A stretch of DNA of 64,000 nucleotides from an uncultured Candidatus Saccharibacteria bacterium (GTDB taxonomy: Bacteria; Patescibacteriota; Saccharimonadia; CAILAD01; BJGX01): contig CAYMHI010000002.1 in the NCBI GenBank assembly GCA_964390265.1, positions 4,254-68,253 on the forward strand, given 5' to 3'. Of the stretch, positions 4,617 to 57,600 are shown piece by piece; position 1 is the first letter of the stretch, and every line of letters begins with the position of its first letter. The notes under the pieces are model-generated. The model saw only the letters and a list, made by a program, of their open reading frames with translations. It made no database searches and had not been told where the DNA came from. The position numbers and the translations under genes were made by a program.

Positions 4617-5717
4617 ATGAAACTTTCTGTATTACAAAGTAATTTAAATAAAGCATTAAGTGTTACTAGTAGATTAATTCAGACTAATAACAGCCTACCA
4701 GTACTAAGTAATGTATTATTACAAACCAAAGATGGTCGTCTAGAGCTACAAGCTACAAACTTAGAAATAGCTATTTCTTATAAGATTGGCGCCAAGATAG
4801 AAAAAACTGGTAGTCTAAGTGTCCCCGCTCGCCTGCTTAGTGATCTAATTAACACCCTGCCTAACGATAAAATACAATTAGTACAGGTCAAAGACAATCT
4901 AGAAATTCACACCAACCAGCTTAATTCAGTAATTAATGGTATAGCAGCTAGTGAGTTCCCTAAGATTCCTGAGGTTAAAACTACTAAGCAATTTAGTATT
5001 GCAGTTAATGATTTTGTAGACGGCTTAGAGTATGTGTTGCCAGCTGTTAGCCTAGATGAGTCGCGACCGGTATTAACTGGGGTGTATTGTAAGGTAGAAT
5101 CGTCAGTTTTAACTTTTGCCGCTACCGATAGTTACCGTTTAGCTCAATACACTATTTCTGGTGTTAAAATCGATGATATTGAAGTTATTATTCCCCACCG
5201 CACTATTCAAGAGCTAATTCGAATTATTAAAAGTGAATCTATTACTGAGTTAGATGTAGGTGTAAGTGCAACCGAGGTGGTATTTTCATCTAAAAACTTT
5301 ACACTCACCTCACAACTAATTGAAGGTAGTTACCCAGATTACACTAAGATAATTCCACCCAACTCTCAAACATCAGTAGTGATTAATAAAGATGATTTAC
5401 TCAGTGGCCTAAAAATCGCTAGTTTATTCTCTAAAGAAAATGCCAATACTATAAGCCTGGCGGTAGTAAAAAACGGTTTAACAATTCAGTCTCAGGGTGC
5501 GCAGGTAGGTACCAACGAATCTAAACTAGAAGCAAAAACCACCGGTAATAATAAAGAAATTAATCTTAACGCTCGCTATCTTATAGATACCTTATCGGTT
5601 ATTGATAGTAAGTCTATACTATTGTCTCTCAATGACAAGCTCGACCCATGCGTGGTTTCTGCTAATAATAAAAAATCTACCTCCAACATTCATATTATTA
5701 TGCCTTTACGGAGCTAA
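4617..5717 (+). CDS. dnaN: DNA polymerase III beta sliding clamp
   Basis: 366 aa with three-domain clamp-like layout; sits in the canonical position after dnaA. Confidence 0.9.
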   Translation: MKLSVLQSNLNKALSVTSRLIQTNNSLPVLSNVLLQTKDGRLELQATNLEIAISYKIGAKIEKTGSLSVPARLLSDLINTLPNDKIQLVQVKDNLEIHTNQLNSVINGIAASEFPKIPEVKTTKQFSIAVNDFVDGLEYVLPAVSLDESRPVLTGVYCKVESSVLTFAATDSYRLAQYTISGVKIDDIEVIIPHRTIQELIRIIKSESITELDVGVSATEVVFSSKNFTLTSQLIEGSYPDYTKIIPPNSQTSVVINKDDLLSGLKIASLFSKENANTISLAVVKNGLTIQSQGAQVGTNESKLEAKTTGNNKEINLNARYLIDTLSVIDSKSILLSLNDKLDPCVVSANNKKSTSNIHIIMPLRS

Positions 5718-43953: not shown

Positions 43954-44808
43954 ATGATAAGAGCCGCCCAAACCGACAAAAAACTAAAAGAATCAATTTT
44001 AGAATTGCTTAGTTTTTGTACTGAGCACGGAATTAGTCTTGATGAATCCGAAATATTGCAGCATCTACCAGTTAGAGCAAGCAGTGTAGGTGTAAACTCT
44101 CACTTAAGATGGCTAGTGGAACAAAAAAAGGTTACTAAGTTGAAAGATAATAGTTATGGAATTATTAAGGCAAAGTTTTCGGGTGCTCATAGACTTAGCG
44201 ATATTTACAAACAAATGCATTACTCTAGAAAAGTAAAAAATATAGTCAAGGTTGCCAAAATGGTGCCGTTTATAAAGGCAGTTCTAATTAGTAGCGATAG
44301 TATTTTTCACCCAATAGATAAAAATAAGTCACATCAAGAGTTAATAATTGTAACTCTTCCAAATAGAATCTATTTGGCCAAAGATATCATAAGATCTACG
44401 GCATATCGAACTAACAACAAGCAAGATAAAGCTAAATCTAAAAAAAATTCTCTCAAAGCTAGCTGCCAAGACATATATTACTCTACGGCTGGGCTTAGGT
44501 TTGTAGATAAAATGGGAAAATCTCAATTAGAAAAAGTGCTATGGGCAGCTTTTGCCAAGCCAATATACGGCAACTCAACATGGCAGAATTTGTTGCATAA
44601 CGATCCGTTTATATCTCGCCATCTTCCTAATAATCCCTATGTTCATAAGGTGGGCAAAATAGATGTGTCTACCAGTCGGTGGCTAGATAGTTTGGACAAT
44701 GCTCGTTATAGAGACTATCTACAAGAAATGTCAAAATTGAAAGATTTTAAAGACAGCTCACACTTTTTACGTATACGACCCGATGTGTTTATTGTTAAAG
44801 AAAATTAA
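43954..44808 (+). CDS. hypothetical protein
   Basis: 284-aa ORF with no motif recognised. Confidence 0.45.
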   Translation: MIRAAQTDKKLKESILELLSFCTEHGISLDESEILQHLPVRASSVGVNSHLRWLVEQKKVTKLKDNSYGIIKAKFSGAHRLSDIYKQMHYSRKVKNIVKVAKMVPFIKAVLISSDSIFHPIDKNKSHQELIIVTLPNRIYLAKDIIRSTAYRTNNKQDKAKSKKNSLKASCQDIYYSTAGLRFVDKMGKSQLEKVLWAAFAKPIYGNSTWQNLLHNDPFISRHLPNNPYVHKVGKIDVSTSRWLDSLDNARYRDYLQEMSKLKDFKDSSHFLRIRPDVFIVKEN

Positions 44809-44829
44809 TAATTTTATTGTCAAAAGGTA

Positions 44830-44858
44830 TTGACATCATTGTGCTTATGTGATACTAT
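44830..44858 (+). promoter_or_regulatory. consensus sigma70 promoter driving the GC-rich non-coding transcript
   Basis: TTGACA (44830-44835), 17-nt spacer, TACTAT (44853-44858). Confidence 0.5.
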
Positions 44859-44865
44859 GTATTTC

Positions 44866-45792
44866 TACCTAGGCAAAAGCCAATGGTTGCACCACAACAA
44901 AAAGGTCTTGGGTGCTCCGAAAGGAGCAGCACGACTCGTCTTGGAGAAATCCCTCTCGTAAAGAGAAAAAGACGAAGCGTGTATTGGTCTACAGAGCTTA
45001 AAGGCACTGTATATCAATCCCTCACAAACCTGATACTGCTGCAAGGAGGCAAGGCGCCGTAGTCCCTCGAGCCCCGCGCGCAACGCGGAGCTGGGATCGC
45101 CGCCTTGGCTCGGAGCCGCCATCGGGCGTAGTCTCCGGGCCACGAGACCCTGCAGTAGTTAAGGGCACCGTTACCCAGGCCGGGAGCGGTGCAGCGGGGC
45201 CGGTGGTGAGTCGGGGCACAGCTCGACACCACCACCGGCCCCTTCGAAATCCTCGATTCAAAGAACGCTAGGCACCGACTGAGGTCCGCGACCTCTGCCT
45301 GGTATCGAGGTAGCCACACGGCTGAGTTCATCTCGCGAAAACCTGTAATGAAAGGGGAACCAGTGGTTCCACCCGGCAACTAAGCCCCTCTTAGTAGGGG
45401 TACGGGCTTGCCCGAACCACATCCGCCCTCGCTGAGACCGAAAGGAACAAGGCGTGACACGAGAAGATTTACCCTAGCCTTGACCGAGAGAGTAAGTGGG
45501 CGAAAAACAATCCCAGCTCTCGTGATAGGCGCCTCCGTCCCGTTCTTAGGTGCTAGGTGTTGCACCACACCTAAGAACACGCGGCCAAGCTGCCAGAGAC
45601 CACCCCGGTGCAAGACCGGAGTAGAAGTGAGCGAGCGTTGTGCGCAAGATTGTTTTTGACTCCCCCTCAGGCAACTAGAGCCGAGGTGAGCGAGCCCAAA
45701 ACCATGACAGCCACAGCGCCAAACAGACTCTACCTACGTCTTAGCGGCTTTGGTCGCACCCCACACCCTCCACCAGGAGGGTGTTATTCGTT
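44866..45792 (+). ncRNA. candidate large (~0.9 kb) GC-rich structured non-coding RNA, unassigned family
   Basis: Bounded by a consensus promoter and an intrinsic terminator (CACCCUCCACCAGGAGGGUG + UUAUUCGUU at 45764-45792). No coherent ORF in any frame, only short overlapping ORFs on both strands. Many strong hairpins (e.g. GUUCUUAGGUG...CACCUAAGAAC, GGCCGGUGGUG...CACCACCGGCC). GC far above the genome background. Confidence 0.4.
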
Positions 45793-45811
45793 ATATAGAC
45801 ATAAATAATGC

Positions 45812-45841
45812 TTGACACAGCACTTACCGCACTAGTAGAAT
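45812..45841 (+). promoter_or_regulatory. groESL promoter
   Basis: TTGACA (45812-45817), 18-nt spacer, TAGAAT (45836-45841). Confidence 0.5.
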
Positions 45842-45846
45842 AACTA

Positions 45847-45873
45847 TTAGCACTCCACCGCTATGAGTGCTAA
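45847..45873 (+). promoter_or_regulatory. CIRCE element (HrcA operator)
   Basis: TTAGCACTC-N9-GAGTGCTAA, a perfect inverted repeat, between the promoter and groES. Confidence 0.85.
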
Positions 45874-45978
45874 TGCTTATCTAAAAAACTAATGTCATAT
45901 CGAGCGTAGTTGAGAGATCTAAGAAAAGATTTCTCCAGTCCAGTCGAAATGACAAGTAATTTGTAAAAAGGAGAACGT

Positions 45979-47893
<1,915 letters not shown>

Positions 47894-47961
47894 TTTCGCA
47901 CTAAGCGACAATTAATTGACTTAAATAAAAAGACCTCTTACAACGGAGGTCTTTTTAGTAA

Positions 47962-47990
47962 TTGACAAAGAGTATATAGCATGCTATACT
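47962..47990 (+). promoter_or_regulatory. consensus sigma70 promoter for the small GC-rich gene
   Basis: TTGACA, 17-nt spacer, TATACT. Lies just after the groEL terminator hairpin (AAGACCUCUUACAACGGAGGUCUUUUU). Confidence 0.5.
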
Positions 47991-48035
47991 ACTATTTGTT
48001 CCATAAGGAATTTCCCGTTGATCACTAGGAGCGAT

Positions 48036-48293
48036 ATGAGCGACATGTTTGCTTTGACCGTCGGCAACGACGGTGTGTTCCACGCCGGTAACGCCAGTGA
48101 TGACCTGGTACCCGGCGAGGAAACCACGCCAGTCTCCGCACCTCCGCGCGGTCTCGATCCCGAAGACAACGAGTTGCGCTCGCCCGTCTTCGATCCGCAT
48201 CGCTGCCGAGCGTTGGCGGAATGCGACAGTTGGGACCTCCACGGCCCCGATCGCGTCGAGTCGAGTGGGCGAAAGCCCAGAGATCGCAAGTAG
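48036..48293 (+). CDS. small acidic hypothetical protein encoded with high-GC codons
   Basis: 85 aa from ATG 48036 (MSDMFALTVGNDGVFHAGN...). Strong GC3 bias (GAC, GTC, GGC, AAC, TTC). SD AGGAG. Followed by terminator GAGGCUUGCC...GGCAAGCCUC + UUU (48318-48356). Confidence 0.45.
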   Translation: MSDMFALTVGNDGVFHAGNASDDLVPGEETTPVSAPPRGLDPEDNELRSPVFDPHRCRALAECDSWDLHGPDRVESSGRKPRDRK

Positions 48294-48435
48294 AAAACAG
48301 CAACAAACGCCCTGCCCACCCCGAGGCTTGCCCGTCAAAAGGCAAGCCTCTTTACTAATAAATCATTCTAGACACATAGTTTATAAATTGCTACAATTAC
48401 TGGGCATTTGTACCCCTCAATAAGAAAGGCGAGAG

Positions 48436-48888
48436 ATGACAGCGGTAGAGAGATTACGAGGTGGGCTTGAAAGAGAGGCTGCGCTCGAGGAAGCGTCGCG
48501 CAAAAGCATACCATGCCTAAAGCCAGGCATATTGGTATTAGCCGATCTAAGCGAACTACGCCATAAGGCAGACCGCCAAGATCTGCAGGTTCCGGTAGTG
48601 TTGATTCACTCCGTGGAGTGCAGTTGTTTCTGGAAAGCAGCCTGCACAACCATTAGGTCAACCAACCCAATCAATGGGCGAAAAATGCCAAGACTGGATT
48701 GCACAGGTGATGGTGTTCTTCCACAGCTGTATCTGCGTGCAAGTAAAGTCATCGAGCTACCCGATTTTGCGGTAGTTAGGCACTTGGCCACACTCACGCC
48801 AAATGATGCCGAGAGGGTAATTCGTACATACAATTATTACGGTGCCATTGCCAGTAGGCTGCGAAAAGTGGCCAACGGTATAAGCTAA
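48436..48888 (+). CDS. hypothetical protein
   Basis: 150-aa ORF with no motif recognised. Confidence 0.4.
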   Translation: MTAVERLRGGLEREAALEEASRKSIPCLKPGILVLADLSELRHKADRQDLQVPVVLIHSVECSCFWKAACTTIRSTNPINGRKMPRLDCTGDGVLPQLYLRASKVIELPDFAVVRHLATLTPNDAERVIRTYNYYGAIASRLRKVANGIS

Positions 48889-49020
48889 CTCACTCAGCCA
48901 ACAGCCCTTATTGTCTACAACAGTAAGGGTTTTTAAATTACCAACTAGACACCCTACAGGTATGTTTGTTACAATAAATAGCGTTTTGTACCTTATAGGC
49001 GAGAGAGGCGAGGTAAGTTA

Positions 49021-49815
49021 ATGCAAACTAAGCTAAGAGATCACACCCAGGCCGATATGGCCTTTAGAGCCGGTAGAACAGATAGGGCAATAAAGTACTA
49101 CCAAGCGTGCCTAGATGTGTATCGAGTGAATGGTGATGTATATGGCCTGGCTGGCTGCACTCATTCTCTTGGAGTGGCCCTGGTATACGAAAACTGCCCC
49201 AAGGAGGGCATGGAGGCTCTTCTGCAGGCTCGTATAGCCTGGACTGGCCAAAACCGCATCAACGAGGTGGGCAGGGCCGAAAGAGATATTGGAGTAGCCC
49301 ATATGCTGTTTAGGCAGTATTTTGAAGCCAACGAGTGGCTAGAACGTAGTCGCCAAACTCTTGGTTTTAGTAAGGCTACCGAGAGAGGCCTCACCGAGGC
49401 AAAGAGGGGTAGACTATACAGCCTAGATGGCGAGTTCGATATGGTTGATGGCTGTTTTGATGAGGCATTTACCCTTGTAGCCCAAGCACAGTCGCCAGAG
49501 GTAGTTTGTGTGGTACATATAGACAACGCTTTTGCCTGTATGGAGCGTTTGCAGTGGGGACATATGCACAACCATCTGGAGGCCGCTTGGCAGATAATTC
49601 ATTGCCTGGGCGATCAACTAATACGGCAAATGTTGCAACTAACCACTCTCAATGCGCGCTGGTTAATGAACAACTCGGAGTGGGTGCACGCCCAGAAGTT
49701 ATTTAGAGAGAAGTTTGTTGAACCTAGCAGAGATCTCTCGCCTGGAATGGTTGAGGTATTGAAGCGTGAGGTTGGTGCCGATGAACTTGCCGAACTACTA
49801 CTAGTAGATTTCTAG
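49021..49815 (+). CDS. hypothetical protein (possibly TPR-like helical repeats)
   Basis: 264-aa ORF, helical with Tyr/Ala/Leu repeats; no firm motif. Confidence 0.45.
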   Translation: MQTKLRDHTQADMAFRAGRTDRAIKYYQACLDVYRVNGDVYGLAGCTHSLGVALVYENCPKEGMEALLQARIAWTGQNRINEVGRAERDIGVAHMLFRQYFEANEWLERSRQTLGFSKATERGLTEAKRGRLYSLDGEFDMVDGCFDEAFTLVAQAQSPEVVCVVHIDNAFACMERLQWGHMHNHLEAAWQIIHCLGDQLIRQMLQLTTLNARWLMNNSEWVHAQKLFREKFVEPSRDLSPGMVEVLKREVGADELAELLLVDF

Positions 49816-49972
49816 CACTACGCCCTATCTGTTACGCAGATAGGGCTTTTTATATAACTTATAAAGTACATCTCAAACAATAATGTCAGTGAAACTATAC
49901 AAATAGTATGTTTCACACCAGATGTGAAACATATATATAGAGTAGAGTGTATATAAAACTTGTAAAAAAGTA

Positions 49973-50001
49973 TTGACAAACACCTCATAGTTTGATACAA
50001 T
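49973..50001 (+). promoter_or_regulatory. consensus sigma70 promoter with a ~230-nt AT-rich leader before the high-GC gene
   Basis: TTGACA, 17-nt spacer, TACAAT; the start codon is ~235 nt downstream. Confidence 0.45.
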
Positions 50002-50239
50002 ACTTGGCGATACGGTGACCAGGGTAAAACCAATTGTCGTGTCGACACTTTGACAAAGCAAGGATCATATATAAGTAAACAACAATCATGTTGACTGTTG
50101 TGCTGCATAGACCGGTTTACAAATAAATGTTAGACCGGCGCATGCAGTACAACAGCAGTAAACAAAAAAGATAATACGCTTTTTTGTATGGTAGCCCAAA
50201 CCAATTAAGCTACCGTTGCCCCAGGAGGGGTATATCGAC

Positions 50240-51820
50240 ATGACCAGCAACGACACCCGTACCAGCGCGCAGAAGCGCCAGGACACCATCAACGAGCGCA
50301 AGGCCGAGGCCGAGCGCCTGGGCATGAGCTACACCGACTACGTCAAGTCCCTCAAGGCCCAGAAGCGCAAGCCCGGCAAGAAGAAGACCGGCACGGCTCC
50401 GGCCGCGCAGGAAGACAGCGTCGAGGAGACCCGAAGGGCCATCCGAGGTGCCAAGGGCCAGACCGGTTCGACCGTGGCCGAGCAGGCAACGGCTGCGCTC
50501 ACGCACATCCACGACGACGACAGCATGAGCTGGAAGGACGACGCCCACAAGGGCGAGGCCATCCTGAAGCTCATGTCCGGCGACGAAGAGGTGCAGCTGG
50601 CGGGTCTGAGGATGTACGAGACCAGCCTGCGATACACGGAGGCGGCACGCATCAAGGACGAGCTCATCGAGGGTGGCATCGACGATGACGTCGCCGAAAC
50701 CATTCGCTTCAAGATGTGCAACCCGCACGCCGAAGTTCGCGAGTGGGTCAGCGAGGTAGTGTTGCCCAAGATCAAGTCGGGTGAATGGAGCACGGTCCCC
50801 AAGAAGGACTTTGCTACCACCAACCCGACGAGTGGCCCCAGCCAGAGCCCCGCTGAGATCCGTGAGGAGCTCAACAAGGCACTCGAGCAGATGCGGAACC
50901 ACCCGTTCCGAAGCGCCATCGAGGCGCTCATCGTCGAGCAGGCTGAGGCCAAGGGCGGCAAGCACGCGAAGTGGGTCATCCAGGTTCTCAATGACGAGAG
51001 CGACCCGTTGCATCGTGCCAAGTCCATCCGGGCAGCAAAAGGTGTGTTCTTGAGCATTGGTCACCAGATTGCCGAACCGTTGGTGCCGCTCGACATCGCT
51101 CAGCTCGAGGCCGACCGCAAGGTCATCCTGGGCGACGTGAACGCGAGCAAGCTGACGGGCTGGGTGGCTGAGAAGATCAGCGACCCGGGCGATCTGAAGC
51201 ACATGCAGAACCGTGCTTCCCTGAGGAAGGCCCTTGCCATCGCCCATGGAGTGCTGGGCAGGTACATCGAGACCGCCGCAGTGGTGGCCAAGGTACTCGA
51301 GACCATCGACCCGTGGTTCAGCTACGGCTGGGATGCGGAACTCGATGCGATCGAGCAGCGCGATGCCGAGCGCACAGCCAACCAGGCGAATCCGTACGTG
51401 CCCTGGAAGGTCGAGCTCATCGACGAAGCGCTGGCGGCTTACAAGGCCGACCTCGAAGACGGCGGGAGCGCGCTGCTTGCTCTGTGTGGCAACACCAACA
51501 AGCTGCACGGTCTGCTCAAGGCGATCGATGTGTTTCGACGCGTCGTGACCGAAACCGGACAGACCCTGTTCGAGAGCCACGAGTTGCAGATGCAGTTCGA
51601 GGCGCTTCTCGGTGGCGACAAGGCCAAGGCGAGCAACTCCAAGCCGAGTGATGGCGCGCCCACCCGGCGTTCCAGCACCTCCGAGGAGAAGCGAGCCAAG
51701 GCCGAGCGCAACCGGAAGAACCGGGAAGCCCGGGCCGAGGCCGACAAGGCCAAGGCCGCCGCCAACCCCGAGCGCAAGCGCGGGTACGAGCAGGTCGGGG
51801 GCCGCAAGAAGAAGAGTTAA
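50240..51820 (+). CDS. high-GC hypothetical protein with Lys/Arg-rich termini (horizontally acquired?)
   Basis: 526 aa from ATG 50240 (MTSNDTRTSAQKRQ...). SD CAGGAGGGG. Pronounced GC3 codon bias across the gene, unlike the flanking genes. Followed by hairpins at 51830-51955. The antisense 456-aa ORF is rejected. Confidence 0.55.
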   Translation: MTSNDTRTSAQKRQDTINERKAEAERLGMSYTDYVKSLKAQKRKPGKKKTGTAPAAQEDSVEETRRAIRGAKGQTGSTVAEQATAALTHIHDDDSMSWKDDAHKGEAILKLMSGDEEVQLAGLRMYETSLRYTEAARIKDELIEGGIDDDVAETIRFKMCNPHAEVREWVSEVVLPKIKSGEWSTVPKKDFATTNPTSGPSQSPAEIREELNKALEQMRNHPFRSAIEALIVEQAEAKGGKHAKWVIQVLNDESDPLHRAKSIRAAKGVFLSIGHQIAEPLVPLDIAQLEADRKVILGDVNASKLTGWVAEKISDPGDLKHMQNRASLRKALAIAHGVLGRYIETAAVVAKVLETIDPWFSYGWDAELDAIEQRDAERTANQANPYVPWKVELIDEALAAYKADLEDGGSALLALCGNTNKLHGLLKAIDVFRRVVTETGQTLFESHELQMQFEALLGGDKAKASNSKPSDGAPTRRSSTSEEKRAKAERNRKNREARAEADKAKAAANPERKRGYEQVGGRKKKS

Positions 51821-52202
51821 CTTCTTCCGCCGGTATCAGGAACCGGCGACAACCAACGCCGATTAACTTCGGCAAAAAACCTGAATTTCGTCCCCCACGT
51901 AGGGGCCGGTAGGAGATCGATTTCTGATCTGTGGACATGGTCCTTAACTACCGGCCCCTGGGGGCTGCAACAAGAAAGAGAATATATATGATATCTTGCT
52001 TTGTCTCTTTCCCAGAAAACCTATTATTTGGCTGAGATTCTGAAGCTAGTTCAGAATGACGAATTAGGCTTTGTGAGAAAGAACACCAAAACACCACCAT
52101 ACATTAGGTGGTGTTTTGTATATTAAACAATTATAATACCACTTGTAATTGTACCTACCACCACTATAGCTCACAGGCCGAGCCGAAAGGGGTACACAAG
52201 CT

Positions 52203-52739
52203 ATGATGACCTCAATGGGAATTGAGTTCCCTGACGACCATATTCGAATTACTCCGCGCACTAGCGCCGAGCTAGACCGAGCAACTCATCAAGAAATCGC
52301 TCTGATGATACTTGCAATTTTGGCTGACAATAGACGATTGTACAGAGACGTACGTGAAGATGGCTATCGCTCGAGTATAAGGCGCGTAAAAACCAAGTAC
52401 GATATCTTTGACCCCAATCTGGTTATAGATGAATCTGACTTGAAAAGATGGAAACGCATTCTCAAACGGATATTTATTCCCGCCGAGAATGAGCACGAGC
52501 GACGGCTCAATTGTCATAGTGCTGAAAAATGTCGTTTGCTTAGATTGATGGTACAAAAACGGTATCCAGAGTGGCGCGCAATGCTGGTAAATCATCCGGA
52601 GTATTCTGAGTACAATCAAGACTTAGATAGGATGATGCTTACAGAACTCGAAGCAATGCTCAGAGAGCTTAAGTGTATAGAAGAAATGGGTATTAGATTC
52701 TCTGATGATGGCGAAGTAGATACCACGAACAGTAGCTAA
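52203..52739 (+). CDS. hypothetical protein
   Basis: 178-aa ORF; preceded by a bidirectional terminator-like hairpin (ACACCACCAUACAUUAGGUGGUGU + UUUUG, ~52084-52120). Confidence 0.45.
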   Translation: MMTSMGIEFPDDHIRITPRTSAELDRATHQEIALMILAILADNRRLYRDVREDGYRSSIRRVKTKYDIFDPNLVIDESDLKRWKRILKRIFIPAENEHERRLNCHSAEKCRLLRLMVQKRYPEWRAMLVNHPEYSEYNQDLDRMMLTELEAMLRELKCIEEMGIRFSDDGEVDTTNSS

Positions 52740-54808: not shown

Positions 54809-55510
54809 ATGGTAGATAATAATTCAAACGACATAGAAAACGAGGTTCAGGCTACTGAGTCGTCATTTAATGCCGATATACCCGGCGAAGACGTAGATAA
54901 AGGCTTAGCTGGAGTGGAACTTGTAGGTAAAAGAGCTGAAGAAAAGGCGGCTAAGCCAGAAGAAAAGCCCCCATCACTGTTTTCGCGCTACTTGAAGCTT
55001 GGATCAACCAAGCCGGCCGAAAACAAACCAACCACCAACCCAGATGTGCCCGAGCAGTTCTTAATGCGTTGGAGTGCTCCTGAGTTTGTGCAGACCCACA
55101 AACCCATTGGCTGGTATATAGGTTTCGGTATATTTTTTATAGCCATGATAGCGCTGGCTGTATTCACTAGGCAATATCTAGCTATTGGTGTATTTGTACT
55201 GATGGCGATTACACTATTTATTTATGCCAATCGTCCACCTAGAGTACTGCAGTATCAAATAAGTAATTATGGTGTGTATGTGGGCGACAAAAAATATATG
55301 TATGACAACTTTGATGCCTACTATGAGACGAGCGATTATGGCCAAACGGTATTAGAGCTAGTGCCAAACGGCAGATTTGGCACGCTAGTAAGCCTGCCCC
55401 CTGCTGAGCACAAGTTAGAACAATTAGAGCAAACACTTGGACAAATGCTACCCAAGGTAGATAACCGCGAAAATATTGTTGATAAGCTTTTTAGAAAACT
55501 ACGATTTTAA
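54809..55510 (+). CDS. membrane protein (two TM helices, acidic N-terminus)
   Basis: 233 aa; TM pair IGWYIGFGIFFIAMIALAVF / LAIGVFVLMAITLFIY; possibly a bacterial PH-like domain. Confidence 0.45.
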   Translation: MVDNNSNDIENEVQATESSFNADIPGEDVDKGLAGVELVGKRAEEKAAKPEEKPPSLFSRYLKLGSTKPAENKPTTNPDVPEQFLMRWSAPEFVQTHKPIGWYIGFGIFFIAMIALAVFTRQYLAIGVFVLMAITLFIYANRPPRVLQYQISNYGVYVGDKKYMYDNFDAYYETSDYGQTVLELVPNGRFGTLVSLPPAEHKLEQLEQTLGQMLPKVDNRENIVDKLFRKLRF

Positions 55511-55543
55511 AAAATCAGCCATCTAAGGCTGACTTAATAATAC

Positions 55544-55709
55544 CTGGTGCGCCCGGCGGGATAGCGGCTAACGCCTTCTCCCTGTGGTGCTCGACCAAAA
55601 CACTAACAAGTTTGGTTTTGCTCTGCGCGCCTCCTGCACCGAACCATAGGTTTCGACTCTGTCAAACAAACCAATCTCTAGCCCTCATGTAAACATGAGT
55701 ACCAGAGAT
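55544..55709 (-). repeat. ~165-bp tRNA-associated element ending in an exact 17-nt copy of the tRNA-Arg 3' end
   Basis: tggtgcgcccggcggga at 55544-55560 equals the 3'-terminal 17 nt (including CCA) of the adjacent tRNA-Arg. Interior is homologous to the 24050-24214 element (shared ...gcgcctc.t.c.ccgaacc.tagg... and GGTGCTCG...AACAAG.TTGGT.TT blocks). Confidence 0.45.
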
Positions 55710-55786
55710 TGGTGCGCCCGGCGGGATTCGAACCTACGACCTTCAGTACCGCAAACTGACGCTCTATCCAGCTGAGCTACGGGCGC
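55710..55786 (-). tRNA. tRNA-Arg (anticodon read as GCG)
   Basis: GCGCCCGTAGCTCAGCTGGATAGAGCGTCAGTTTGCGGTACTGAAGGTCGTAGGTTCGAATCCCGCCGGGCGCACCA. Arg-like D-arm and A73; anticodon loop UUGCGGU; one A-C mismatch in the T-stem. Confidence 0.7.
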
Positions 55787-55895
55787 GCATCTTGATTAAT
55801 TTAATTTGCACTATTGCTGTGCAACAGAGAGATTATACCCTATTATTCGGCAAAATAAAAGAAACACATTAGTGATATTACAATGCAAAAAGTAC

Positions 55896-55924
55896 TTGAC
55901 AATAATGCTAGTGTTAGCTATAAT
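55896..55924 (+). promoter_or_regulatory. perfect consensus sigma70 promoter
   Basis: TTGACA (55896-55901), 17-nt spacer, TATAAT (55919-55924). Confidence 0.55.
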
Positions 55925-55930
55925 ACTACT

Positions 55931-56779
55931 CATGTTCATTTTCATTACGAATAGAACTGAAACTTCTAGGTTGAACCGCTGACCTCCTCAGCGTGTCTCA
56001 CCCAAGGAGCCGGTCGCCCATCGCCCGCCCGGCCGGCTCCTAAAATCTCCTCTTGTACTGTGCAATGTAGTGCCAACGCGAAGCGCCAAGGCGTAGCGAG
56101 GCGCGATCTTCACCTTTTGCAAAGAGAGGTGGCATGGTCAAGGAGAACCCCAATCAGCCAGGGGTCAATTGCGGGTAACAAAGATTCTGCGGTTGTTAAA
56201 TTACACCACCGCGGTGCCAACCAAAAAGGGCTGACTAAATCACTTTTTGGAATCTTTAACAGAGCTTGATAACTATCGCTACTACTGGAGACGCTGCGGC
56301 GTCGTGGAAGGTAGTGGATGATAAGCTCGCAGCCTGCCGGCTGAGACTCTGCTCTCCTAGCAAGAGAGTTAAAGAAGGCAAACTGTCCAGGCAGTATAAA
56401 AAACAGGTGAGGCATGAGCCAAATCTGTTTGGCGCCCCATCTTGGGCGTATAAGAGTTTGGTGTAGCTCAATAGATACGAGGGTGCGAAGAGCCTGGACT
56501 CTTCAAGCCTTCACCAGTTCTTTAAAGATCGGGGTTCGGTCGGCTCCTCCTCTCGCCGGGACCCGCCACCGACCGAACCCCACTTCGCCAGTCAGCGGCC
56601 TCAAGCTGGCGATCCCGAGAACATCGGGAGGGGCGCTCCGCATAGGAGCTACAACCACCCCGCCATGAGGCACCCTGGCCATCGTCCAGGGTTACTAAGA
56701 GAAGATACAACGTCCACCGGTAGGGAGGGCCACCAAGGCCCTCCCTACCACGACCACCCACCAATTGGTGGGTTTTTTT
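55931..56779 (+). ncRNA. second candidate ~0.85-kb GC-rich structured non-coding transcript
   Basis: Runs from the consensus promoter to the terminator CCCACCAAUUGGUGGG + UUUUUUU (56756-56779). Only short overlapping ORFs in all frames. Many GC-rich hairpins (GGAGCCGG...CCGGCUCC, GGUAGGGAGGGCC...GGCCCUCCCUACC, GGGGUUCGGUCGG...CCGACCGAACCCC). Confidence 0.35.
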
Positions 56780-56808
56780 ATTACTGCTATAATATTAAGT
56801 CAACAACA

Positions 56809-57600
56809 ATGAAAAACATTATTATTTTTAGCAAACCCAGTCAGCGTGCAAAAGCCATAGCGGCCAAATTAAAAAATGACCTAAAAGAATTAAAAAAATC
56901 GCCTAGCAAACCGATTGTAGTTGCTATAGGTGGTGATGGTACTATGCTAATGGCTATAAATAAATACGAGAACAAAGATGTATTGTTTATAGGTATATCT
57001 GCTGGACACTTAGGGTTTTTACAGACACTTAACTATGAAGACACTCCATTACTCATTCAATCAATTGAGAAGAATCAATTTAGTATAATTTCTGCACCAA
57101 TGTTGGGTGTTCGATATGTCGATAACAAGCAAGTGTTGGGCTACTGTTTTAACGATATTACCATTGAACGGTCTGGCCCCAGAGCGGCACGTTTCCAACT
57201 GCATGTAGACGACTTTGAAGGAACATTTATTGGTGATGGAATTATTTTTTCAACACCTCTCGGCTCAACTGCCTATTCACTTGCGGCTGGCGGGCCCATA
57301 ATAGATTCGCGTGCTCAGGATGTATTTGTGGTGAGCCCCAGCAATCCGCACATATCGGCGCTTTACTCTAGCTTACAGCGACCACACGTAATGCAAAAGG
57401 GCCGAATTATTAAGGTAGAATCTTACCCCGAAGATCGCAAAGAAAGACCCATACAGCTATCAATAGACGGCCATATTATTACCAATAAACTTACTCGTGG
57501 TGTTGAAGTATTTGTATCTGATAAATCTGTAAAATTATTAGAACTTAAAGAAAAAGATTTTCATAGTCGTATAGACAAAAAAAGACTCGGTAAATATTAA
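56809..57600 (+). CDS. nadK: NAD kinase
   Basis: 263 aa from ATG 56809 (MKNIIIFSK); GGDGTML motif; NAD-kinase C-terminal fold signature DGIIFSTPLGSTAYSLAAGGPI. The track ORF start at 56665 is an over-extension. Confidence 0.85.
   Translation: MKNIIIFSKPSQRAKAIAAKLKNDLKELKKSPSKPIVVAIGGDGTMLMAINKYENKDVLFIGISAGHLGFLQTLNYEDTPLLIQSIEKNQFSIISAPMLGVRYVDNKQVLGYCFNDITIERSGPRAARFQLHVDDFEGTFIGDGIIFSTPLGSTAYSLAAGGPIIDSRAQDVFVVSPSNPHISALYSSLQRPHVMQKGRIIKVESYPEDRKERPIQLSIDGHIITNKLTRGVEVFVSDKSVKLLELKEKDFHSRIDKKRLGKY

What the first reader, a model, noticed from the sequence alone, without database searches (positions are those of the whole stretch)
55896..56779. Second promoter-to-terminator GC-rich non-coding transcript between tRNA-Arg and nadK
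A perfect TTGACA-17-TATAAT promoter at 55896-55924 is followed by about 850 nt. The first ~60 nt are AT-rich, then the sequence is GC-rich and hairpin-dense, for example GGUAGGGAGGGCC-ACCAA-GGCCCUCCCUACC. It ends with the terminator CCCACCAAUUGGUGGG + U7 just before the nadK promoter. No ORF is convincing: all are 101 aa or shorter, and two of the three plus-strand ones start within 4 nt of the previous one's stop in a different frame. The architecture is the same as the 44866-45792 candidate, but no obvious primary-sequence similarity between the two was seen by eye.
Basis: seen in the sequence. Interest (0 to 1): 0.55.

Follow-up and report, generated by a model that had tools for sequence, protein, structure and literature searches.

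The report
Large structured RNA gene in Saccharibacteria
Between a tRNA gene and nadK, this Saccharibacteria (TM7) chromosome carries a gene for an ~850-nt, heavily folded non-coding RNA that matches no catalogued RNA family; it is far better conserved than neighbouring protein genes, so it clearly matters to the cell, but its job is unknown.

Summary
A perfect TTGACA-17-TATAAT promoter (55896-55924), a GC-rich hairpin-dense body, a 13-bp G-rich hairpin (56719-56749) and an intrinsic terminator (56757-56779) are all present.

The region is not a pseudogene:
- It has no codon periodicity and no protein-family hit.
- The sister lineage differs by six single-base indels.

It is a real structured RNA gene:
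- Folding z = -8.3.
- Homologues lie at the same locus in other Saccharibacteria MAGs.
- In the central domain (56201-56466), 17 of 77 pairs change on both sides and stay paired, against 0-2 in shifted controls.
- There are 26 G-U cells against 2 A-C cells, which points to the + strand.
- The RNA is 94% identical to the sister lineage, where nadK is 81% and four-fold sites 50-60%.

No Rfam 15 family matches, and the first candidate (44866-45792) is unrelated.

Across the clade the locus is mosaic. Differently sequenced, equally structured GC-rich RNAs occupy the same slot, some lineages have none, and shared features are few, chiefly a GC-rich hairpin before the terminator.

Best reading: a stand-alone, highly expressed, trans-acting large RNA, comparable in kind to OLE, ROOL and GOLLD. 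Its mechanism is inferred, and transcription has not been shown.

The parts
55885..55895 (+). A-rich stretch upstream of the -35 hexamer (GCAAAAAGTAC). The AAAAGTAC or AGTAC motif recurs in front of the variant RNAs of other lineages.
55896..55924 (+). Consensus sigma-70 promoter TTGACA-17-TATAAT. The 17-nt spacer is almost invariant (27/29 over the whole promoter) between lineages whose NadK proteins are only 64% identical. It contains the repeat GCTAgtgtTAGC, which may be an operator.
55925..55969 (+). AT-rich 5' leader with a predicted transcription start near 55931-55932. The conserved AUGUUC(A/U)UU could start a leaderless mini-ORF (55932-55982), but its length is not conserved.
   Evidence: inference for the start site
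55970..56200 (+). 5' domain made of several hairpins, for example 55977-55993 with a U-A to C-G swap in L013, and 56006-56040 (GGAGCCGG...CCGGCUCC). It is less well conserved than the centre.
56201..56466 (+). Central multi-helix domain, closed by the invariant helix UUACACCAC / UUGGUGUAG (56201-56209 with 56458-56466). It encloses nine or more helices and the invariant blocks GAUGAUAAG, CAGCC..GGCUGAGA.UCUGCUC and ACUGUYCAGGCAGUAUAAA.
56479..56516 (+). Conserved hairpin (56479-56492 with 56499-56512) whose apical sequence GAAGAGCCUGNACUC is invariant, followed by the invariant UCACCA.
56530..56700 (+). 3' array of very stable GC-rich hairpins: 56530-56581, 56583-56612, 56613-56629, 56630-56661 and 56672-56692. 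From here to the terminator the RNA differs from the sister lineage at only 5 positions.
56719..56749 (+). 13-bp G-rich clamp hairpin GGUAGGGAGGGCC-ACCAA-GGCCCUCCCUACC. An equivalent GC-rich hairpin sits just before the terminator in the variant RNAs read at this locus.
56757..56779 (+). Intrinsic terminator CCCACC-AAUU-GGUGGG followed by U7.
55710..55786 (-). tRNA-Arg (GCG), transcribed divergently from the RNA gene. Context only: it marks the left edge of the variable slot.
56785..57600 (+). Context only: nadK with its own extended -10 promoter (TGcTATAAT, 56785-56793) and CDS 56809-57600. It marks the right edge of the slot.

Best explanation
This is a stand-alone gene for a large (~850 nt here, ~1,050 nt in another lineage), highly structured non-coding RNA.

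Shown:
- The sequence has RNA-type secondary structure on the + strand.
- That structure is maintained by compensatory substitutions.
- The RNA evolves far more slowly than neutral sites and more slowly than the neighbouring protein genes.
- It is bounded by a consensus promoter and an intrinsic terminator.

Inferred:
- It is transcribed strongly from the consensus promoter. The unusually conserved spacer suggests a repressor may bind there.
- The 3' end is protected by the G-rich clamp hairpin plus the terminator stem.
- The RNA acts in trans through its fold. An invariant-helix-closed central junction domain, flanked by hairpin arrays, would serve as a scaffold or decoy for one or more proteins, or as a self-assembling RNA particle, in the manner of OLE, ROOL and GOLLD.

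Across the clade the gene sits in a fixed slot between tRNA-Arg and nadK, but its interior is modular and turns over quickly between lineages.
For: - Folding: z = -8.3.
- Homologues at the same locus: L013-L016 are 94% identical; L005 and L006 are about 60% identical and share a near-identical promoter.
- Central domain: 77 pairs, 98% of cells paired, 17 pairs changed on both sides against 0-2 in slid controls, covariation score 0.36 against 0.03-0.06.
- Strand: 26 G-U cells against 2 A-C cells, so the + strand RNA is the selected molecule.
- Selection against the sister lineage: RNA 94.3% identical, nadK 80.6%, four-fold sites 50-60%, flanking intergenic DNA 77%.
- Non-coding: six 1-nt indels are tolerated, there is no codon periodicity and no Pfam hit.
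- Promoter: 12/12 match, with 0 expected by chance.
- Variant RNAs in the same slot are all strongly structured, z = -5.8 to -15.7, while the nadK control gives z = +0.5.
- No conserved neighbouring protein gene was seen. This fits a trans-acting RNA or an RNA-only particle.
Against: - No expression data exist, so transcription, ends and abundance are all inferred from sequence signals.
- Only four distinct sequences in two deep lineages support the covariation.
- No partner protein, ligand or target is known.
- Several related genomes (L003, L004, L017, L018) lack any RNA here. Others carry unalignable RNAs. The function is therefore dispensable or lineage-specific.
- High identity to the sister lineage could partly reflect recent recombination rather than constraint alone.
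Confidence: 0.6

Rival explanations
1. The RNA is cargo of a tRNA-adjacent integration hot spot. In this reading it is a 'moron'-like transcription unit left by, or serving, mobile elements, for example in phage or mobile-element conflict, rather than a core cellular RNA.
For: - The slot lies next to a tRNA gene.
- Its content differs between related genomes: different RNAs, small ORFs, and a GIY-YIG homing-endonuclease gene with a duplicated tRNA end in L013.
- ROOL and GOLLD likewise sit near tRNAs and in prophages (PMC12286853, PMC5737381).
Against: - The window has no integrase, phage or plasmid genes around it, and its neighbours are housekeeping genes in conserved synteny.
- No similarity to 50,697 phage or 72,556 plasmid records.
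- Zero hits in viral contigs.
- It is single-copy in the window.
Confidence: 0.15
2. The transcript is a precursor that is cut into many small hairpin-derived RNAs, such as guides or regulators. The conserved ends would serve as processing handles and the variable interior as the payload.
For: - The architecture is a tandem hairpin array.
- The 5' and 3' features recur while the interiors vary between lineages.
Against: - The central domain is a closed multi-helix junction with long-range pairing, not a string of independent hairpins.
- No repeats or spacer-like units were seen.
- No matches to phage DNA.
Confidence: 0.07
3. The element acts in cis on nadK. It would be a long leader or attenuator, or a strong upstream transcription unit that tunes nadK by read-through or promoter occlusion.
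For: - It always ends just upstream of nadK, or of a small ORF preceding nadK.
- In L002 and L030 the terminator U-tract overlaps the nadK -10 box.
- nadK has no obvious -35 hexamer or Shine-Dalgarno sequence.
Against: - There is a strong terminator, and nadK has its own extended -10 promoter, which is also present in genomes without the RNA.
- L005 and L006 have another gene with its own promoter between the RNA and nadK.
- Relatives with nadK but no RNA exist.
- An 850-1,050-nt constrained fold is far more than attenuation needs.
- No NAD+ riboswitch family matches.
Confidence: 0.08
4. The region is a decayed GC-rich protein gene. It would be a frameshifted pseudogene of the kind of GC-rich ORFs that sit under similar promoters elsewhere in the window.
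For: It shares its outer architecture (TM7 promoter, AT-rich leader, GC-rich body) with the intact GC-rich ORFs at 48036-48293 and 50216-51820.
Against: - No codon periodicity, against GC3 of 85% in the real ORF.
- No Pfam hit for any ORF.
- 94% identity where neutral sites are 50-60% identical.
- 1-nt indels are tolerated.
- Compensatory pairs are present.
Confidence: 0.02
5. The feature is a DNA-level element (structural or recombination site) or a mis-assembly of high-GC host DNA into the contig.
For: The GC-rich island stands out from the 43% GC genome.
Against: - Identical junctions occur in five independent assemblies.
- The asymmetry of 26 G-U to 2 A-C cells fits RNA of the + strand, not duplex or cruciform DNA.
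- Promoter and terminator are oriented consistently with that strand.
Confidence: 0.01

Closest known systems
[quoted passage not shown]
   Same: - It is a very large (>800 nt) bacterial non-coding RNA with many helices and multi-stem junctions.
- It is often encoded next to tRNA genes.
- No partner protein is known and its function is unknown (PMC12286853, PMC5737381).
   Different: - There is no sequence or structure match. Rfam 15 was scanned at E<=10 with no hit.
- GOLLD is typically in prophages or phages, whereas this locus is in a housekeeping, syntenic chromosomal context with no phage genes.
- The host phylum differs: Saccharibacteria/CPR.
- Oligomeric cage formation was not tested.
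ROOL RNA (Rumen-Originating, Ornate, Large)
   Same: - It is a large ornate RNA (about 580-660 nt) that lies near tRNA genes.
- It can be extremely abundant yet non-essential.
- It has few highly conserved nucleotides (PMC5737381, PMC12286853).
- The RNA here is likewise absent from some related genomes.
   Different: - No covariance-model match.
- The architecture differs.
- Not in a prophage.
- The interior of this RNA turns over between close lineages much faster than is described for ROOL.
OLE RNA
   Same: It is a large (~600 nt), highly expressed, ornate RNA that acts as a ribonucleoprotein scaffold. This is the kind of mechanism proposed here.
   Different: - OLE is defined by co-occurring partner genes (oapA/B/C) and occurs in extremophilic Firmicutes (PMC3413148).
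- No conserved neighbouring protein gene is seen here.
- No model match.
The first candidate in this window (44866-45792)
   Same: Same outer plan: strong TM7 promoter, GC-rich ~930-nt body without codon periodicity, hairpin plus terminator, and no Rfam family.
   Different: - No primary-sequence similarity.
- No match to the covariance model of the core domain, even with filters off.
- The two are therefore not demonstrably homologous.

Membership tests
Any Rfam 15 family (including GOLLD, ROOL, OLE, HEARO, RNase P, tmRNA, 6S, SRP, group I/II introns, NAD+ riboswitches) | A match to the family covariance model at or near its gathering score | tested here: not met
   At gathering thresholds the whole window yields only tRNAs. 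At E<=10 on 55500-56900 only noise appears, best 14 bits against a gathering score of 59. At E<=1 on seven loci that carry homologous or variant RNAs, only tRNA-related hits appear.
GOLLD/ROOL-type large ornate RNAs (as a kind) | Length above 500 nt with multiple conserved multi-stem junctions supported by covariation | tested here: met
   The RNA is 850-1,050 nt. Its central domain has 13 helices and 17 pairs with double changes. Only 4 sequences were available.
GOLLD/ROOL-type large ornate RNAs (as a kind) | Frequent location next to tRNA genes | tested here: met
   tRNA-Arg lies about 110 nt upstream and is divergently transcribed. The same holds in L002, L005, L006, L007, L013, L019 and L030.
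GOLLD/ROOL-type large ornate RNAs (as a kind) | Frequent prophage or phage context | tested here: not met
   Neighbours are PGI, NadK, GroEL and similar housekeeping genes. There are no PHROG hits, and no phage or viral-contig similarity.
GOLLD/ROOL/OLE | Homo-oligomeric RNA assembly (cryo-EM) | not testable with these tools
   This requires in-vitro transcription and cryo-EM or native gels.
OLE-type ribonucleoprotein | Conserved co-located partner protein genes | tested here: not met
   The genes flanking the RNA differ between carriers: none, a GIY-YIG gene, a small ORF of about 90-100 aa, or a small secreted-protein ORF.
Protein-coding gene or frameshifted pseudogene | Codon periodicity, protein homology, indels in multiples of three or neutral decay | tested here: not met
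   GC by codon phase is flat. There are no Pfam hits. Six 1-nt indels coexist with 94% identity where four-fold sites are 50-60% identical.
Group II intron or other mobile RNA element | Domain V/ribozyme core, intron-encoded protein, multiple copies, or target duplications | tested here: not met
   No Rfam intron hit. No reverse-transcriptase or maturase ORF. Single copy in the window.
cis-regulatory leader of nadK (riboswitch or attenuator) | Continuous transcript into the regulated gene, and co-occurrence with that gene | tested here: not met
   A terminator and a separate nadK promoter are present. L005 and L006 have an intervening gene. nadK occurs without the RNA in L003, L004, L017 and L018.

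The most novel reading that the evidence does not exclude
The GC-rich RNA would be one of a set of GC-rich, strongly structured transcription units in this AT-rich epibiont genome. The set includes the first RNA candidate, a hypervariable 534-aa orphan ORF, an 85-aa ORF, and Flp-pilin and 91-aa ORFs in relatives. Their composition would reflect action on, or origin from, a high-GC partner organism. In that reading the RNA is a host-directed effector or host-mimicking molecule of the parasite, and the rapid modular turnover of the locus reflects an arms race. A high-GC actinobacterial host is my assumption from general knowledge of Saccharibacteria, not a result obtained here.
Probability: 0.05. 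Interest if true: 0.9.

Novelty: new variant of a known kind. Interest (0 to 1): 0.6.

Why it matters
Bacterial non-coding RNAs longer than about 500 nt with conserved complex folds are very few: rRNAs, group II introns, OLE, GOLLD, ROOL, and little else (partly from PMC5737381, partly my own knowledge). Each has turned out to do something unusual.

This would be a new family, and to my knowledge and in the literature searched here the first large RNA of this kind described for Saccharibacteria, ultra-small epibionts with reduced genomes. An 850-nt RNA kept at 94% identity, while neighbouring genes drift to about 80%, implies a significant function.

It also matters for annotation. Gene callers have already placed spurious proteins on this RNA or extended nadK into it.

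The mosaic behaviour of the locus, and the co-occurring GC-rich ORFs, point to a so-far undescribed mode of genome dynamics in this clade.

Tried and rejected
- **Metagenome pattern scan.** I scanned 241 M metagenome records for the invariant block TAAGAGNNTGGTGTAGCTCA.
- **Viral-contig scans.** Two scans with invariant blocks gave 0 hits.
- **Spurious-ORF search.** Searching the 5.8-billion protein set with the spurious 238-aa ORF, to find other mis-called copies, returned nothing.
- **Phage and plasmid BLAST.** Queries with this RNA, with the L006 and L019 variants and with the 534-aa ORF found nothing.
- **More homologues through NadK relatives.** This approach used 11 of 12 contig look-ups. 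It yielded the 94% sister lineage and several non-homologous variants, but no third deep lineage of the window type.
- **RNAalifold on the flanking domains.** The 5' and 3' domains gave poor consensus structures, because hairpin lengths differ between lineages. I make no covariation claim for them.
- **Ideas dropped:**
  - tRNA-like structure at UGGUGUAGCUCA...UCACCA: neither ARAGORN nor Rfam supports it.
  - Anti-Shine-Dalgarno mimicry in the 3' hairpin: seen only in L006.
  - A Phe-rich leaderless leader peptide: its length is not conserved.
  - A k-turn at GAUGAUA: the sequence lies in a regular helix.

Full report
**Setting.** The window is a chromosome segment of a Saccharibacteria (TM7, Patescibacteria) bacterium with 43% GC. 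The closest NadK loci in GTDB genomes are all titled Candidatus Saccharibacteria or Patescibacteria. The neighbours of the finding are ordinary housekeeping genes: phosphoglucose isomerase, phosphoglucomutase, GroEL, NAD kinase, an FAD-binding protein, a cyclopropane-fatty-acid-type methyltransferase and an M3 peptidase. The finding lies between tRNA-Arg(GCG) (55710-55786, minus strand) and nadK (56809-57600).

**The observation.**
- TTGACA-17-TATAAT at 55896-55924 is a 12/12 match. It is one of two in the window, with none expected from 100 shuffles.
- An AT-rich start is followed by 55-63% GC.
- The hairpin GGUAGGGAGGGCC-ACCAA-GGCCCUCCCUACC lies at 56719-56749. The terminator CCCACCAAUUGGUGGG plus U7 lies at 56757-56779.
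- The plus strand folds to -360 kcal/mol against -286 +/- 9 for dinucleotide shuffles, z = -8.3. The minus strand gives z = -6.0.
- ORFs inside are 101 aa or shorter. The 311-aa ORF at 56665-57600 is nadK with a spurious extension. A 238-aa minus-strand 'gene' in a public assembly reads through two TGA codons.

**Not coding.**
- GC content by codon phase is flat, 0.55/0.54/0.59, and flat in 150-nt sub-windows. The GC-rich ORF 5 kb upstream shows 0.63/0.43/0.85.
- None of eight ORFs from the region hits Pfam at E<=1, apart from one 14-bit noise match.
- The sister lineage differs at 49 positions, including six single-base indels spread over the region.

**Homologues.** Related loci were fetched through NadK.
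- The lineage with 88% NadK identity (L013-L016, four independent samples) carries the same RNA at 94% identity.
- L005 and L006 (NadK 64%) carry a ~1,050-nt homologue behind an almost identical promoter. The promoter reads TTGACAATAATGCTtGTGaTAGCTATAAT, 27 of 29 positions identical, although the surrounding intergenic DNA is unalignable.
- These homologues share long invariant blocks: ACACCNCCGYGGUGCC, GAUGAUAAG, CAGCC..GGCUGAGAYUCUGCUC, AACUGUYCAGGCAGUAUAAA, UAAGRG..UGGUGUAGCUCA, GAAGAGCCUGNACUC and UCACCA. Between the blocks the sequences have diverged to about 60% identity.

**Structure and selection.**
- For the central domain (window 56201-56466 plus the following hairpin), RNAalifold on the four sequences gives 13 helices and 77 pairs.
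- 98% of cells are paired, and 17 pairs changed on both sides yet stayed paired.
- Sliding the 3' partners by 1-3 columns gives 35-43% paired and 0-2 such pairs. The covariation score is 0.36 against 0.03-0.06.
- An invariant helix, UUACACCAC with UUGGUGUAG, closes the domain.
- In these pairs there are 26 G-U cells and only 2 A-C cells. The plus-strand RNA is therefore the selected molecule, not duplex DNA or the opposite strand.
- Against the sister lineage the RNA is 94.3% identical. nadK is 80.6%, the upstream 233-aa gene 85.6%, four-fold degenerate sites 50-60%, and the intergenic DNA between the tRNA and the promoter 77%.
- Only 5 of the differences fall from 56530 to the terminator.
- This is strong purifying selection, although recent recombination could add to the contrast.
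- I make no covariation claim for the 5' and 3' domains, where length variation spoils the alignment.

**Not a known family.**
- Rfam 15 (4,227 models) reports only tRNAs in the window at gathering thresholds.
- It reports nothing credible in the region at E<=10.
- On seven related loci at E<=1 it reports nothing on the RNAs.
- There is no similarity to phage or plasmid collections and none to viral contigs.
- Full-text searches found no paper describing such an RNA in Saccharibacteria.

**Relation to the first candidate.** The 44866-45792 candidate has the same outer plan and also no Rfam match. BLAST with short words finds no similarity. A covariance model of the core subdomain (56258-56370) scores the four training sequences at 122-152 bits and nothing else, even with filters off over 44500-52300. 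The two are not demonstrably related.

**The locus is mosaic.** In the same slot upstream of nadK, next to tRNA-Arg:
- L007 and L026 carry a ~600-nt GC-rich RNA. It shares only its last ~180 nt with L005 and L006, a stretch the window RNA lacks.
- L019-L022, L030 and L002 carry still other GC-rich RNAs of 430-700 nt. Only short shared pieces link them: 48 nt between L019 and L030, and the terminator between L002 and L030.
- L003, L004, L017 and L018 have none.

The variants I read end with a GC-rich hairpin, usually G-rich on its 5' arm, followed by a terminator. An AAAAGTAC or AGTAC motif precedes the -35 in the window, L013, L005, L006, L019 and L030. All five variant RNAs tested are strongly structured, z = -5.8 to -15.7 with 12 shuffles each, while nadK gives +0.5. 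A chain of partial homologies thus links some of the variants. This fits one ancestral gene evolving by module gain, loss and replacement, but repeated independent replacement is not excluded.

**How it most likely works.**
- *Shown:* this is a bounded, plus-strand, structure-constrained, slowly evolving non-coding element.
- *Inferred:* it is transcribed strongly. The conserved promoter spacer with the repeat GCTAgtgtTAGC hints at a bound regulator. The G-rich clamp plus terminator would stabilise the 3' end. The RNA would act in trans through its fold, as a protein scaffold or decoy or as a self-assembling particle.

This is the working mode of OLE (ribonucleoprotein scaffold) and of ROOL and GOLLD. 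The latter two are RNA-only cages that lie near tRNA genes, have no known partner and have no known function (PMC12286853, PMC5737381). I put about 0.6 on this composite reading. The statement that it is a functional structured RNA gene alone deserves roughly 0.85-0.9.

**Rivals.**
- Hot-spot or mobile-element cargo, 0.15. The tRNA-adjacent variable slot and a GIY-YIG insertion in L013 favour it. The housekeeping synteny and the absence of any phage signal count against it.
- Cis control of nadK, 0.08. The separate promoter, an intervening gene in L005 and L006, and nadK without the RNA in four relatives count against it.
- Precursor of small RNAs, 0.07. The closed junction domain counts against it.
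- Pseudogene, 0.02.
- DNA-level element or artefact, 0.01.

**Comparison and novelty.** In kind it resembles the large ornate bacterial RNAs. It fails membership of every catalogued family and lacks the prophage context typical of GOLLD and ROOL and the partner genes of OLE. I class it as a new variant of a known kind: a new family of large structured RNA, in a phylum for which I found none described, with unusually fast modular turnover.

Interest is 0.6.
- In favour: a specialist would want to see this RNA. It is very large, strongly constrained, sits in a minimal genome, and is one of at least two in 64 kb.
- Against: its distribution appears narrow, the evidence rests on four sequences, and no function can yet be assigned.

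Noticed in passing
window 49973-52000 (ORF 50216-51820; likely start ATG 50240); L032 1-2300: A 534-aa ORF with 64% GC (GC3 85%) sits behind a TM7-type promoter and an AT-rich structured 215-nt leader. In the sister genome the promoter, leader, first ~60 codons and 3' UTR are 88-92% identical. The central ~1,400 nt is unalignable, yet the ORF is again exactly 534 aa with GC3 of 88%. Only 3 homologues exist among 5.8 billion proteins, and there is no Pfam, PHROG, phage or plasmid hit. It looks like a hypervariable orphan protein with a conserved basic N-terminus.
   Followed up: partly
window 55545-55709 (-) and 24085-24164 (-); L013 4405-4580 and 2711-2827; L006 3625-3796; L018 5693-5863; L002 7202-7316; L003 7201-7315; L005 6960-7060: A conserved ~115-165-nt structured element follows tRNA-Arg or tRNA-Ser genes, in at least nine of the ten copies aligned. 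In most copies it ends with a copy of the 3' acceptor strand of that tRNA (for example GCCGGGCGCACCA after tRNA-Arg and CCCUCUCCGCCA after tRNA-Ser). In ten copies, 22 pairs are predicted, 96% of cells are paired and 9 pairs show compensatory change. It matches no Rfam family. It may be a tRNA-targeting mini mobile element or a tRNA-trailer RNA.
   Followed up: partly
window 44866-45792: The first candidate RNA has a TTGACA-17-TACTAT promoter at 44830-44858, a ~930-nt body of 59% GC with no codon periodicity, and a hairpin at 45763-45784. It has no Rfam match at E<=1 and is not related to the RNA studied here.
   Followed up: partly
window 47962-48345 (ORF 48036-48293): A further GC-rich unit has a TTGACA-17-TATACT promoter, a short leader with AGGAG, an 85-aa GC-rich ORF with no Pfam or PHROG hit, and then a hairpin.
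   Followed up: no
L017 ~830-1130; L018 ~5290-5580; L007 4380-4728 (-): In relatives that lack the RNA, a TM7 promoter and structured leader drive a GC-rich Flp-type pilin ORF (…ERGASLVEYALLVALIAVV…) on the other side of tRNA-Arg. L007 has a GC-rich (~70%) 91-aa ORF there. GC-richness is kept in both diverged Flp copies.
   Followed up: no
L013 4629-4907 (and L014-L016 7-285); L013 7274-7525: GIY-YIG homing-endonuclease-like genes are inserted beside tRNA-Arg, with a duplicated GAGCTACGGGCGC, and downstream of nadK in the sister lineage. They are absent from the window.
   Followed up: no
window 55932-55982; L013, L005 and L006 equivalents: An AUG lies 7 nt after the -10 box, so a transcript might start at it as a leaderless message. 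The resulting mini-ORFs are MFIFITNRTETSRLNR (window), MFIFIMNRTEISG (L013) and MFFEK (L005, L006). The AUGUUC(A/U)UU sequence is conserved but the peptide length is not.
   Followed up: partly
L018 10135-10189 (+): A sub-threshold match to the type III hammerhead ribozyme model: 39 bits against a gathering score of 48.5, E = 6e-5.
   Followed up: no
window 56665-57600; L001 208-924; proteins P0013 and P0015: Annotation artefacts are caused by the stop-poor GC-rich RNA. nadK is called with 70-100 extra N-terminal residues in some assemblies, and a 238-aa minus-strand ORF was called across the RNA by reading through TGA codons.
   Followed up: yes
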